A program made the translations under genes and the position numbers. A DNA stretch of 64,000 nucleotides from Dehalococcoidia bacterium (lineage in GTDB: Bacteria; Chloroflexota; Dehalococcoidia; UBA2979): contig OZ244720.1 of assembly GCA_965219085.1 (NCBI GenBank), positions 3,215,527 through 3,279,526 of the forward strand, given 5' to 3'. How positions within the stretch are numbered: the first letter of the stretch is position 1; every line of letters begins with the position of its first letter. The notes below the pieces were generated by a model. That model had not been told where the DNA came from and searched no databases. It was given only the letters and a program-made list of their open reading frames with translations. Shown one piece after another: positions 60,888 through 63,178 of this stretch.

Positions 60888-61149
60888 GGCTCCGTCAGGG
60901 GACATCACGAGCGGATCGGCCCCGATGTCGAGGAGCGCCACGCCCCGAGGAGGAGGCCGCCACGTCGGCCTTGCAGAAAGACCGTCCCTCATAGAAGCTA
61001 CCGCCCGCGCGACGAGCAGGAGCCACCCCTGGGCGGACGCAACCCGGATGTCGACTTCCGCGGGCGGCGGCGCAGCCGCGATACGCATAGTTCCGGCACG
61101 GACCCGGAGGCGCGGCTGTACACGAAGACACCCCCAGGACGCTAAGGGG

Positions 61150-62373
61150 TCAAGCAGCGAGGTCCTCGTGGGTGTAACGGTGTCCCCAGGCGGTCGTCTC
61201 GTCGTAGGGCAAGCGGCGCTTCAGGCAGCCATGTAGGTAGCCGACGAGACGGTTGCCGAGGGCGCGGAGCGCCTGGTGGTGGAGGTCGCCCGCGGCGCGC
61301 CGCCGATCGTAGAACTCGCGGCAGCCGGGGCTGGCCTGCAGGGAGCACAGCGCCCACTGGTCGACTGCGTCGTAGAGGCGCCGGTTGCGGACGAAGCGGG
61401 CTTTCACGGTGTGCTTGCGGCCGGATGCTACCGTCAGCGGCGACGTGCCGGCGTAGTTCCTGCGGGACTTCGCCGACTCGTAGCGTTCGGGGTCATCCCC
61501 GAACTCGCCAAGCACCCGGGCGCCGAGGACCACGCCGAGACCGGGCAGGGAACGGTAGATACCGGCGTCCGGGTGCTGCTCAAAATGGCTCGCGAGCTCG
61601 GCCTCGAGCTCCTTGATCTGACGGTTGATCTCGCCGATCACCCTCATTGCCGCACTGGTGCTCGCGGCGAATGCCTTGCTCACCGCGGGCGGAGCCTCGA
61701 GCTGCGGTGAGCGCAGCGCGTCGCGGACCTCGGCGGCGCGCCGCTCGATGTTGCGCCGGCGGCCGCCGCGGCGCAGCGCGGAGCGGATCTGGGTGATGCT
61801 CAGCCGCGCCGCCTCGCGCGGGCCAGGCGCTGTCGCCAGCACGCCCACCGCGTCGTCGTGCGCGAGGTCGGGGAAGGCCTCCAGCGCACCCGGAAAGTAC
61901 TCCCTGAGCGCGTTGCGCAGCCGGTTGGTCTGGCGGACGCGGTCCCAGATCAACTGCTGGTGGGCGCGGGCGAGGATGCGCACCGCGGCGGCTTCGTCGC
62001 TGTCGCCGGCGACCTCCCGGTGGTTGTGCCGGTCGGTGCGGACGAGGTCGGCGAGCAGCTTCGCGTCGCCGGCGTCGGACTTGGCGCCGCCGACGTGGTG
62101 GCGGTCGCGGTAACGCGACGCCGAGCGCGGGTTGATGGCGTAGACGTGGTAGCCGGCCGCGAGCAGTGCCGCGACCCAGGGGCCGCGGTCCGTCTCGATG
62201 CCGACGATCACCTCACCCGGCCCTGAGGCGTACCCGGCGACCAGTCCGTGCAGGGCAGTGATGCCCTCCACCCCTTCGGGCAGACGCCGGGCGGCGAGCC
62301 GCTCGCCCGCGTCGTTCATGAGATGGACGTCGTGGTGGTCTTCGGACCAGTCATCGCCCAGGTACAAGGCCAT
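61150..62373 (-). CDS. IS110-family DEDD transposase/recombinase
   Basis: LGDDW, GIETD, KSDAGDA; YAGTSP..ASG catalytic Ser. Confidence 0.96.
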   Translation of the reverse strand: MALYLGDDWSEDHHDVHLMNDAGERLAARRLPEGVEGITALHGLVAGYASGPGEVIVGIETDRGPWVAALLAAGYHVYAINPRSASRYRDRHHVGGAKSDAGDAKLLADLVRTDRHNHREVAGDSDEAAAVRILARAHQQLIWDRVRQTNRLRNALREYFPGALEAFPDLAHDDAVGVLATAPGPREAARLSITQIRSALRRGGRRRNIERRAAEVRDALRSPQLEAPPAVSKAFAASTSAAMRVIGEINRQIKELEAELASHFEQHPDAGIYRSLPGLGVVLGARVLGEFGDDPERYESAKSRRNYAGTSPLTVASGRKHTVKARFVRNRRLYDAVDQWALCSLQASPGCREFYDRRRAAGDLHHQALRALGNRLVGYLHGCLKRRLPYDETTAWGHRYTHEDLAA

Positions 62374-62420
62374 CGTGTTTCAGTTCCTCTCCCGCTTCGC
62401 GCTGCTCGGTGCGACCCGGC

Positions 62421-62605
62421 GGGTTGGTTCCTGCGACGGCCTAATGGATCAGTGCTCGATGGCACGACACCCCATGAGTGCTGCAGAACAACCCGGAATA
62501 CCAGCAGGGGCTCGGTCTTCGTGAAGCGGTCCAGAAGCCGCAGGGATCAGCTGAGAGCTCACCGGCTGGCAGGGTCCAGAACCAGTCTGCCAGAGAACCT
62601 CTGGC
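62421..62605 (-). ncRNA. Predicted bridge RNA of the IS110-type element
   Basis: 5' hairpins, then a target loop (CUGAUCCCU / CACGAAG) and a donor loop (GGGGUGUC / CCAUUAG), each closed by an inner hairpin. Ends approximate. Confidence 0.87.
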
Positions 62606-63178
62606 CGCTGGTCGGGCCCCATTAGGGGTCGGGGCAGACGGCGAAGCTCAGCTACATGGGCCATCTGCTCACCGAGAACCGTCACGGTCTGGTGCTGGAC
62701 GTGGAGTTGACCGAGGCGAACGGGTACGCCGAGCGCGAGGCGGCGGTCACGATGCTGGAGCGCAGCGTGAGCGGCTGCGGGACGCTGGGCGCCGACCGCG
62801 GCTACGACACGCGCGGCTTCGTGGCGGCGCTGCGCGCTCGCGGCGTGACGCCGCACGTGGCGCAGCACGACCGCGGCCGCCGCAGCGCCGTGGATGGGCG
62901 CACCACGCGGCATCGCGGCTACAGGCAGAGTCAGAAGCGGCGCAAGATCGTGGAGCAGGTCTTCGGCTGGATGAAGACCGTGGGCGGCGGGCGCAAGCTG
63001 CGCTTCGTGGGCCGCGAGCGCAACCGCTGTTGGCTGGAGCTCACCGCCGCCGCCTACAACCTCGTGCGCATGGCCACGCTCGAGACCGCCGCGGCGTAGG
63101 CGCAGTGCGCCCTCCGCCCCGCCAGGGAGCCCTCAGAGGCCCCCGGGGGCAGGTCAGGAGGCCACGATCACGAACCCG

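What the first reader, a model, noticed from the sequence alone, without database searches (positions are those of the whole stretch)
61121..62632. IS110 bridge RNA with all four guides, handshake bases and a junction promoter
Seen (minus strand): target CCGACCC-CT-TCGTG, donor GGGGTGT-CT-AATGG. Target loop: CUGAUCCCU (62542-50; 7/9 plus two G:U), hairpin GCGG..CCGC, then CACGAAG (62517-23) extended by AC, which matches the post-insertion junction 61121-29. Donor loop: GGGGUGUC (62466-73, 8/8), hairpin GUGC..GCAC, then CCAUUAG(G) (62440-47), inside a long GGGUUGUUCUGC/GCAGGAACCAACCC stem. Circularisation would join TTGACC (61148-53) to TCTAAT with a 19-nt spacer. Known: this is the IS621-type LTG-RTG-LDG-RDG layout with a CT core.
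Basis: partly seen in the sequence, partly recalled or inferred. Interest (0 to 1): 0.9.

Follow-up and report, generated by a model that had tools for sequence, protein, structure and literature searches.

The report
IS110 insertion sequence with bridge RNA
This is an intact 1.5-kb IS110-family mobile element whose 5' non-coding arm encodes a two-loop "bridge" guide RNA matching both its own ends and its insertion site inside another transposon's gene; it is a clean, well-supported example of a mechanism described in 2024, not a new kind of system.

Summary

- **Element:** minus strand, 61126-62625, 1498 bp plus a shared CT. It encodes a 407-aa DEDD/Ser recombinase (NCBIfam "IS110 family RNA-guided transposase", 191.6 bits against a cut-off of 140).
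- **Ends:** six near-identical copies in the genome and seven empty paralogous sites fix the ends exactly.
- **Guides in relatives:** in about 80 relatives the donor loop and the element ends stay constant or change together. The target-loop guides vary and track each element's own flanks (160 of 180 positions paired, against 92±8 after permutation).
- **RNA structure:** a 5' hairpin followed by two internal-loop stem-loops, supported by compensatory changes.
- **Target:** a codon stretch (LYTKG) of an IS5-family transposase gene. Every exact target in the genome is occupied.

The junction −10 (TCTAAT) lacks the usual A at position 2. The window copy has a 19-nt spacer, while four of the six copies and most relatives have 18 (some relatives 17).

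Verdict: a new member of a known kind. Interest is modest.

The parts
61126..62625 (-). Whole IS110-group element including the CT at both junctions (1498 bp plus one shared CT).
   Evidence: Six copies share these ends. Empty paralogous sites carry a single CT.
62626..62632 (-). Left target half, LT CCGACCC. It lies in an IS5-family transposase gene.
61121..61125 (-). Right target half, RT TCGTG.
   Evidence: The same RT is present at the non-IS5 copy L006.
62619..62623 (-). Right donor half, RD AATGG (left end of the element). CTAATGGG is conserved in all relatives.
61128..61134 (-). Left donor half, LD GGGGTGT (right end of the element).
   Evidence: LD changes to GGGATGT together with the LDG in L094, L099 and L100.
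61148..61153 (-). TTGACC, the putative −35 box of the junction promoter. It overlaps the TGA stop codon.
   Evidence: CTTGAC is present in 28 of the 29 distinct junction sequences tabulated from the relatives (CTTGCC in L091), 17-18 nt from TCTAAT. No transcript evidence.
62581..62612 (-). 5' stem-loop of the bridge RNA (ACCAG/CUGGU and GCCAGAG/CUCUGGC).
   Evidence: Seven of its 12 pairs show compensatory changes.
62500..62570 (-). Target-binding loop domain: basal stem, internal loop and apical hairpin.
   Evidence: RNAalifold and pair counts give 98-100% paired, with compensatory changes in 6 pairs.
62542..62550 (-). Left target guide CUGAUCC plus CU. It has the sense of the target top strand, so it pairs with the bottom strand.
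62517..62523 (-). Right target guide CACGA plus AG, complementary to the top strand CT-TCGTG.
62515..62516 (-). TBL handshake bases AC. They are complementary to donor positions 6-7 (GT) and not to target positions 6-7 (CC).
   Evidence: Sequence. Conserved as AC, or AU in the GGGATGT group and L104. The rule comes from PMC11208158.
62421..62494 (-). Donor-binding loop domain: basal stem GGGUUGUUCUGC/GCAGGAACCAACCC, internal loop and hairpin GUGC/GCAC.
   Evidence: A T:A pair insertion is shared by WIN, L025 and L038.
62466..62473 (-). Left donor guide GGGGUGU plus C.
   Evidence: It covaries with LD.
62441..62447 (-). Right donor guide CCAUU plus AG.
62440..62440 (-). DBL handshake base G, opposite target position 7. 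That position is C at the typical site of every guide class; three atypical sites, including L006, carry T.
62385..62392 (-). GGAGAGGA, the likely ribosome-binding site.
   Evidence: Sequence. Inference.
61150..62373 (-). Recombinase ORF of 407 aa. PF01548 DEDD_Tnp_IS110 (residues 6-161) plus PF02371 Transposase_20 (274-355). Putative catalytic residues D8, E60, D100, D103 and S317.

Best explanation
This is an autonomous IS110-group insertion sequence (IS110 family), 1498 bp, on the minus strand. It is very probably active or recently active, and it moves by bridge-RNA-guided recombination as shown for IS621.

Proposed mechanism, inferred by homology except where marked:
1. The element excises as a circle that joins GGGGTGT-CT to AATGG. 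This creates the donor site and brings TTGACC (right end) 18-19 nt upstream of TCTAAT (the junction).
2. Transcription from that junction gives an RNA of roughly 190-200 nt with a 5' hairpin, a target-binding loop and a donor-binding loop. The fold and its covariation are shown; the transcript is not.
3. [quoted passage not shown]
4. In the donor loop, GGGGUGU-C and CCAUU-AG do the same for GGGGTGT-CT-AATGG. The complementarity in steps 3 and 4, and its covariation with flanks in relatives, are shown.
5. A recombinase tetramer with a DEDD site (D8, E60, D100, D103) and Ser317 cuts after CT and exchanges strands.
6. After exchange, AC next to the RTG pairs with donor G6-T7, and G next to the RDG pairs with target C7 (the handshake).
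7. The element ends up flanked by CT on both sides.

The natural target is a stretch coding for ..LYTKG.. in an IS5-family transposase gene. The element therefore lands in a multicopy, dispensable sequence.
For: - **Family membership of the protein.** Pfam DEDD_Tnp_IS110 (E 2.7e-37) plus Transposase_20. NCBIfam NF033542 "IS110 family RNA-guided transposase", 191.6 bits against a cut-off of 140. The only PDB relative is the IS621 transposase 8wt6, with the D/E/D/D and Ser motifs aligned.
- **Ends.** Six copies that are 99.8-100% identical share the same ends. Seven empty paralogous sites carry one CT.
- **Independent insertions.** The IS5 copies at L003 and L005 differ from the window's IS5 by about 1-13% in the flanking stretches compared, while the IS110 inside them is 1499/1500 identical. 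A sixth copy sits at a non-IS5 site that shares CT-TCGTG.
- **Target saturation.** No unoccupied exact 14-nt target remains in the 3.3-Mb genome.
- **Guides.** The four guides lie at the stated places and in the canonical order. The chance of that is about 1e-7.
- **Relatives.** Across 80 loci, 15 distinct guide classes pair with their own flanks at 160 of 180 positions, against 92±8 in permutations (0 of 100,000 reached the observed value). Cognate pairing is 5.98/7 (LT) and 4.62/5 (RT), against 3.29 and 2.09 for non-cognate pairs. LDG and LD change together, GGGGTGT to GGGATGT.
- **Loop conservation.** The target-loop guides are variable (0.64 and 0.80 bits). The donor-loop guides are nearly invariant (1.91 and 1.93 bits), as reported for the family (PMC11208160).
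- **Structure.** 90.4% of cells are paired, against 28-50% when partners are slid. 17 pairs show compensatory change, and 0 of 500 shuffles reach the observed percentage paired or covariation score. The putative transcript (element positions 13-208) folds into a hairpin plus two internal-loop domains.
- **Promoter.** CTTGAC is present in 28 of the 29 distinct relative junction sequences tabulated (CTTGCC in L091), 17-18 nt from the junction TCTAAT.
Against: - There is no RNA or circle evidence.
- Rfam 15 returned no bridge-RNA match for the region, so the RNA could not be scored against an independent model.
- The single-sequence fold of the 252-nt leader is no more stable than shuffles (z = −0.24).
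- The junction −10, TCTAAT, lacks the near-universal A at position 2, so it would fail the tool's σ70 criteria (stated).
- The window copy has an extra G. This stretches the spacer to 19 nt and breaks an eighth LD-LDG pair, so this particular copy may be less fit than the four-G copies.
- Three of the six copies (window, L002, L004) are one composite that probably moved as a unit. They do not count as separate targeting events.
- The seven empty sites differ from the guides by only one true mismatch and one extra wobble, so why they remain empty is not explained by pairing alone.
Confidence: 0.92

Rival explanations
1. The leader segments that match the ends are DNA-level subterminal repeats bound by the recombinase protein. 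Target choice would be made by the protein, with no guide RNA.
For: The LDG and RDG are, trivially, internal copies of the element ends. No transcript was observed.
Against: The LTG and RTG segments match the flanking host DNA, not the element. They change with the flanks across 15 guide classes while the protein stays 76-86% identical. The segments sit in the internal loops of a structure supported by compensatory base changes, which is an RNA-level constraint. The homologous IS621 needs the RNA in vitro (PMC11208160).
Confidence: 0.03
2. The identical insertion sites reflect common descent only. One ancient insertion into an IS5 copy would then have spread by IS5 transposition or segmental duplication, and the guide matches would be a by-product.
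For: Three copies (window, L002, L004) are one 4.3-kb composite bounded by the IS5 ends and are 99.8-99.9% identical throughout.
Against: L003 and L005 lack the second inserted element. They sit in IS5 copies that differ from the window's by about 1-13% in the flanking stretches compared, while their IS110 is 1499/1500 identical. L006 lies outside any IS5 yet shares CT-TCGTG. Relatives with other guides sit at other, matching sites.
Confidence: 0.04
3. The structured leader is only a translational or transcriptional regulator of the transposase gene, for example an attenuator or the target of an antisense RNA.
For: The leader lies directly upstream of the RBS (62385-62392). An Rfam antisense-sRNA family matches inside the ORF.
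Against: This does not explain complementarity to both flanks and both ends, or the covariation with flanks. A regulatory side role is not excluded, but it would be additional.
Confidence: 0.01

Closest known systems
IS621 (Escherichia coli) bridge recombinase and bridge RNA (Durrant et al. 2024, PMC11208160; Hiraizumi et al. 2024, PMC11208158)
   Same: - DEDD plus Ser recombinase.
- Guide RNA encoded in the long left end.
- A 5' hairpin followed by a target-binding loop and a donor-binding loop.
- The 5' guides pair with the bottom strand and the 3' guides with the top strand.
- CT core.
- Handshake bases 3' of the RTG and RDG, including G opposite donor T7 as in wild-type IS621.
- A promoter split across the RE-LE junction.
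- Variable target loop and conserved donor loop.
   Different: - The protein is only distantly related (phmmer E 5.6e-8; 407 aa against a 328-residue chain).
- Different guides and donor (GGGGTGT-CT-AATGG).
- The RDG is contiguous here, whereas IS621 pairs nine RNA bases discontiguously with seven donor bases.
- The LDG pairs with only the first core base.
- Frequent rU:dG wobbles in the LTG.
- The host is a 70% GC genome whose closest relatives are Dehalococcoidia MAGs.
- The target is an IS5 transposase gene. By my recollection IS621 targets REP elements; I did not check that here.
Other characterised IS110-group elements: IS622, ISPpu10, and the Caloranaerobacter azorensis IS110 element (bioRxiv 10.1101/2025.05.14.653916, 10.64898/2026.03.19.712850, 10.1101/2025.10.25.684509)
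   Same: Natural bridge-RNA-guided elements that insert at one repeated genomic sequence in several copies.
   Different: Only the titles and abstracts of these papers were read. No sequence comparison was made.
IS1111-group elements with a seekRNA or bridge RNA encoded downstream of the transposase. Elements such as IS4321 and IS5075 insert into the inverted repeats of Tn21-family transposons (from my own knowledge of the literature, not checked here).
   Same: Same transposase family, and the same habit of targeting another mobile element. One such element lies 130 bp away in the same IS5 gene (59458 to about 60984).
   Different: In the IS1111 group the guide RNA lies in the right end, downstream of the gene. 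Here it lies in the left end, so this element belongs to the IS110 group.

Membership tests
IS110 family RNA-guided transposase (bridge recombinase) | N-terminal DEDD RuvC-like domain and C-terminal Tnp domain | tested here: met
   PF01548 E 2.7e-37 (residues 6-161) and PF02371 E 4.1e-11 (residues 274-355). NF033542 scores 191.6 bits against a cut-off of 140.
IS110 family RNA-guided transposase (bridge recombinase) | Catalytic D, E, D, D and Ser equivalent to IS621 D11, E60, D102, D105 and S241 | tested here: met
   The phmmer alignment to 8wt6 aligns LGDD(8), KSD(100)AGD(103)A and the Ser of TVAS(317)G directly. The E of GIE(60)TD is assigned by motif, because HMMER's alignment is offset by a few columns there.
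IS110 group (as opposed to the IS1111 group) | Long non-coding left end, short right end, guide RNA upstream of the gene | tested here: met
   The left end is 250 nt (62623-62374). The right end is about 22 nt after the stop codon.
IS110 group | No long terminal inverted repeats. A dinucleotide core is present once at the empty site and on both sides after insertion. | tested here: met
   CT flanks all six copies. The seven empty paralogous sites have a single CT.
Bridge RNA (IS621 type) | [quoted passage not shown] | tested here: met
   RNAalifold. Pair counts show 90.4% paired, 17 compensatory pairs and 0 of 500 shuffles. Constrained fold.
Bridge RNA (IS621 type) | [quoted passage not shown] | tested here: met
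   LTG pairs at 9 of 9 positions (7 Watson-Crick, 2 wobble). RTG pairs at 7 of 7.
Bridge RNA (IS621 type) | Second loop: the same arrangement for the donor (RE-LE junction) | tested here: met
   LDG 8 of 8 and RDG 7 of 7. LDG and LD covary in L094, L099 and L100.
Bridge RNA (IS621 type) | Guides covary with target flanks across orthologues; target loop variable, donor loop conserved | tested here: met
   160 of 180 positions paired against 92±8, with 0 of 100,000 permutations reaching that. Information content 0.64 and 0.80 bits against 1.91 and 1.93 bits.
Bridge RNA (IS621 type) | Handshake guides: the two bases 3' of the RTG and RDG pair with positions 6-7 of the non-cognate DNA and not the cognate one | tested here: met
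   In the TBL, AC pairs with donor GT (2 of 2) and not with target CC. In the DBL, G pairs with target C7 (1 of 2), and the next base, C, does not pair with C6.
Bridge RNA (IS621 type) | σ70-type promoter reconstituted across the RE-LE junction | tested here: inconclusive
   TTGACC (5 of 6) and TCTAAT (5 of 6) with a 19-nt spacer here, 18 nt in the four other copies and 17-18 nt in relatives. The −35 is present in 28 of the 29 distinct relative junction sequences tabulated (CTTGCC in L091). However, the −10 lacks A at position 2 and there are no transcript data. No promoter is found in the integrated copy.
Bridge RNA (IS621 type) | The leader is transcribed, binds the recombinase and is required for recombination; a circular intermediate exists | not testable with these tools
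No circle junction is present in the assembly.
Rfam RNA families | Match to a curated covariance model | tested here: not met
   No bridge-RNA family was reported at E ≤ 1 for 58500-64000. I could not confirm whether the library holds such a family, so this says little about membership.

The most novel reading that the evidence does not exclude
The element may be a specialised hyperparasite of another transposon. Its guide is tuned, with rU wobbles, to a conserved coding motif of an IS5 transposase. It knocks out every matching copy in the genome and then hitch-hikes, because the disrupted IS5 keeps its ends and is mobilised in trans by intact IS5 copies. Three identical 4.3-kb composites bounded by IS5 ends fit this. 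A second, unrelated RNA-guided element of the IS1111 type has converged on the same gene 130 bp away. Together these suggest that multicopy transposase genes are preferred safe harbours and vehicles for RNA-guided insertion sequences.
Probability: 0.3. Interest if true: 0.45.

Novelty: new member of a known kind. Interest (0 to 1): 0.3.

Why it matters
It adds no new mechanism. Its value lies in being an unusually complete natural example.
- The ends are exact, and empty sites, several independent insertions and a family of close relatives are all available. In those relatives only the target-loop guides have changed, so natural reprogramming can be read directly.
- It shows features that could inform guide design: routine rU:dG wobble in the left target guide, a fixed C at target position 7 read by the donor-loop handshake base, and discrimination between sites that differ by one mismatch plus one wobble.
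- It extends documented bridge-RNA elements to a high-GC lineage related to Dehalococcoidia MAGs.
- It documents an RNA-guided element that targets another transposon's gene.

Tried and rejected
- **Rfam scan of 58500-64000.** No bridge-RNA match. The only hit over threshold is Ms_AS-4, antisense inside the ORF.
- **Single-sequence fold of the 252-nt leader.** Not more stable than shuffles, and the target loop was mis-paired. The architecture appears only with the trimmed transcript, with guides kept single-stranded, or by comparison across relatives.
- **RNAalifold on the donor loop.** It paired parts of the two donor guides with each other (columns 182-185 with 211-214). I rejected this because those columns are invariant, so they give no support, and because it conflicts with the family's known loop.
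- **L007, an 83% identical gene in the same genome, as a possible second bridge RNA.** It is a decayed relic with a broken frame, no leader and no recognisable ends.
- **Strict σ70 scan of the integrated copy.** Nothing found.
- **Covariance model.** I considered building one from A1 but did not. It would have been built from these same sequences and would add no independent test.
- **Gene hit at the L006 site.** No convincing ORF spans the reconstructed empty site.
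Full report
**What is there.**
- On the minus strand of 61126-62625 lies a 1498-bp element bounded by CT on both sides.
- It contains one long ORF (62373-61150, 407 aa) with Pfam DEDD_Tnp_IS110 (E 2.7e-37) and Transposase_20 (E 4.1e-11).
- NCBIfam's equivalog model NF033542, named "IS110 family RNA-guided transposase", scores 191.6 bits against a cut-off of 140.
- The only solved-structure relative is the IS621 transposase (8wt6, E 5.6e-8). In that alignment the motifs LGDD, KSDAGDA and TVASG line up with IS621 D11, D102/D105 and S241. 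GIETD supplies the glutamate.
- The 250 nt between the left end and the ATG are non-coding. Only about 22 nt follow the stop codon.

**Ends and copies.**
- The window is C1:3215527-3279526 of a single-contig genome of 3.31 Mb and 69.8% GC.
- That genome holds six copies of the element, 99.8-100% identical, all with the same ends.
- Five copies sit at the same place in copies of a 1304-bp IS5-family element. In the window this IS5 spans 58905-63245 and is also interrupted by a second element.
- Seven uninterrupted paralogous IS5 copies read ...CCGCTCC-CT-TTGTG... with a single CT at the equivalent position.
- The sixth copy (L006) lies outside any IS5, between GGGATCT and TCGTG.

**Are the five IS5 insertions independent?**
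- Three copies (window, L002, L004) are one 4.3-kb composite: IS5 carrying both inserted elements, bounded exactly by the IS5 ends at different genomic places, and 99.8-99.9% identical throughout. These most likely moved as a unit and count as one event.
- L003 and L005 carry only this element.
- Their IS5 flanks differ from the window's by about 1-13% in the stretches compared (613/620 and 134/143 for L003; 125/143 for L005). The element inside them is 1499/1500 identical.
- With L006, that gives at least four insertion events.
- No unoccupied exact copy of the 14-nt target remains in the genome.

**The guides.**
- LTG CUGAUCC-CU (62550-62542) has the sense of the target top strand CCGACCC-CT. 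It carries U at two positions where the target has C, giving rU:dG wobbles with the bottom strand.
- RTG CACGA-AG (62523-62517) is the exact complement of CT-TCGTG.
- LDG GGGGUGU-C (62473-62466) equals the right end.
- RDG CCAUU-AG (62447-62441) is the exact complement of CT-AATGG.
- This strand rule (5' guide to bottom strand, 3' guide to top strand, core included) is the one published for IS621 (PMC11208160).
- The two bases after the RTG, AC, complement donor positions 6-7 (GT) and not target positions 6-7 (CC). The base after the RDG, G, complements target C7. This is the "handshake" arrangement of PMC11208158. As in wild-type IS621, that G faces donor T7.
- In shuffles of the leader the four matches have a joint probability of about 1e-7.

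**Comparative test.**
- A scan of one genome per species found 251 related loci, of which 80 were kept. Most come from Dehalococcoidia MAGs at 76-86% protein identity. Others come from Smaragdicoccus niigatensis and Actinomycetota MAGs at 66-69%.
- The ends CT-AATGGG and GGGGTGT-CT are conserved, and so is the donor loop.
- Where the right end is GGGATGT (L094, L099, L100) the LDG is GGGAUGU, a linked change.
- The target-loop guides differ between lineages and follow the flanks. Three examples:

| Locus | LTG | LT (flank) | RTG | RT (flank) |
|---|---|---|---|---|
| L076 | CAACAAC | CAACAAC | ACGUAG | CT-ACGT |
| L099 | UGUCAGC | CGTCAGC | CGUCUAG | CT-AGACG |
| L091 | UGCGUCC | GGCGTCC | GCGGUAG | CT-ACCGC |

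- Over 42 guide/site pairs, cognate pairing is 5.98/7 (LT) and 4.62/5 (RT), against 3.29 and 2.09 for non-cognate pairs.
- Over 15 distinct guide classes, 160 of 180 positions pair, against 92±8 after permutation. None of 100,000 permutations reached the observed value.
- Information content is 0.64 and 0.80 bits in the LTG and RTG, against 1.91 and 1.93 bits in the LDG and RDG. This is the pattern reported for the family.
- Target position 7 is C at the typical site of every guide class, matching the fixed handshake G. Three atypical sites, including L006, carry T.

**Structure.**
- An alignment of 29 distinct leaders (A1) gives a consensus with the target-loop basal stem and apical hairpin, supported by compensatory changes.
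- My explicit structure (5' hairpin, target-loop domain, donor-loop domain) has 90.4% of cells paired, against 28-50% when partners are slid. 17 pairs show changes on both sides. No shuffle of 500 reaches the observed percentage paired or covariation score.
- The window, L025 and L038 share an extra T:A pair in the donor-loop basal stem.
- The putative transcript (element positions 13-208) folds by itself into the hairpin and both basal stems. With the guides kept single-stranded it gives the full three-domain architecture at −70.0 kcal/mol.
- The 252-nt leader folded alone is not more stable than shuffles (z = −0.24), so single-sequence folding is not evidence here.

**Promoter.**
- Circularisation would place TTGACC (61153-61148, overlapping the stop codon) upstream of TCTAAT, which is formed at the junction.
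- Each hexamer matches the consensus at 5 of 6 positions.
- CTTGAC is present in 28 of the 29 distinct relative junction sequences tabulated (CTTGCC in L091). It is kept even where the neighbouring coding sequence has diverged, and always lies 17-18 nt from TCTAAT.
- The window copy and L002 have an extra G in the G-run, giving 19 nt. The other four copies have 18. The extra G also breaks an eighth LD-LDG pair, so the four-G form looks ancestral.
- The integrated copy has no σ70-like site by the strict scan. That fits expression mainly from the circle, but it is negative evidence only.

**Target biology.**
- The target lies in the codons for ..AQLYTKG.. of the IS5 transposase.
- Occupied and empty IS5 subfamilies differ at three target bases, two of them synonymous.
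- Against the guides, the empty sites have one true mismatch (LT position 4) and one extra wobble (RT position 2). Pairing alone does not fully explain why all seven are empty and all five exact sites are full. History or selection may contribute.
- L006 has a perfect core and RT but only 4 of 7 LT positions paired. This resembles the off-target, "half-match" type of insertion discussed for IS621 (abstract of 10.64898/2026.08.31.748434). That is an analogy, not a test.

**Comparison with what is known, and novelty.**
- Everything testable places the element in the IS110 group of the IS110 family with an IS621-type bridge RNA.
- The mechanism has been published since 2024, thousands of orthologous RNAs were predicted there, and NCBI's model already names the protein RNA-guided.
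- Earlier notes of this scan describe similar elements in other genomes, one with the same right-end motif.
- I therefore rate it a new member of a known kind, of modest interest.
- The more novel reading, not excluded, is ecological: RNA-guided elements that specialise on another transposon's gene and ride on it. Here that is supported only by the composite copies and by the neighbouring IS1111-type element.

Noticed in passing
window 59458 to about 60984 (+), ORF 59568-60656: A second, unrelated IS110-family element (NF033542, 238 bits) is inserted in the same IS5 gene about 130 bp from this one, in the opposite orientation. Its long non-coding part lies downstream of the gene, as in the IS1111 type. 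GGCGGTAGC (60767-60775) is the exact reverse complement of the right flank at 60997-61005. CGTTCAAGAG (60789-60798) matches the left flank CGCTCAAGAG (59448-59457) apart from one C/T difference. About 11 copies of this transposase are in the genome.
   Followed up: partly
window 58905-63245: The host element is a 1304-bp IS5-family IS (DUF772 plus DDE_Tnp_1) with imperfect terminal inverted repeats (CTAGCAGGGTGCTGAA / CTAGCAGGCTGCTGAA). There are at least 12 copies in the genome. Seven are uninterrupted at this site, and the others are nested with one to three insertions. L004 has an extra insertion of about 1.6 kb near the position equivalent to 63054-63058. L005 has one of about 1.36 kb near 62867-62876.
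   Followed up: partly
window 58906-63245 compared with G000:C1 around 1202610-1204170 (L002) and 1801583-1803143 (L004): The whole 4.3-kb composite (IS5 carrying both RNA-guided elements) occurs three times at 99.8-99.9% identity, bounded exactly by the IS5 ends. A transposase-dead IS5 seems to have been moved in trans together with its passengers.
   Followed up: partly
window 61468-61549 (+): A match to Rfam RF02464 (Ms_AS-4, Actinobacteria sRNA; 63.9 bits, gathering score 50) lies antisense to the most conserved part of the recombinase gene (Transposase_20 region, about aa 275-302). It may be a real antisense RNA of IS110 elements. Alternatively the family may simply model conserved coding sequence.
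   Followed up: no
window 61130-61134 region (G-run near the right end): There is a length polymorphism among the six copies: GGGGG in the window and L002, GGGG in the other four and in all relatives. It changes the junction-promoter spacer (19 against 18 nt) and one LD-LDG pair.
   Followed up: yes
G000:C1:893433-894622 (L007, L024): A decayed relative of this element (83% DNA identity over the gene) has a broken reading frame, no bridge-RNA leader and no recognisable ends. It lies next to another IS5 copy.
   Followed up: yes
whole genome G000: 26 matches to the IS110-family RNA-guided transposase model lie over the cut-off in a 3.3-Mb genome, falling into at least four or five sequence groups. 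That is a dense load of RNA-guided insertion sequences.
   Followed up: no
window 63268-63999 (−): An IS3/IS481-like integrase gene (HTH_23, rve, rve_3) starts 23 bp beyond the IS5 end and runs off the window. The 3' end of the window is a cluster of mobile elements.
   Followed up: no
loci L030-L036, L047-L068, L079-L093 (relatives in Dehalococcoidia MAGs): The largest group of relatives inserts at CCCC(G/A/T)CC-CT-CTCCC inside a recurring sequence ...CCCCTCACCCCCGCC|CT|CTCCCGCGAGGG..., apparently a dispersed repeat in those genomes. Their left target guides carry U opposite target C at one or two positions, so wobble pairing in the LTG is common in this clade.
   Followed up: partly
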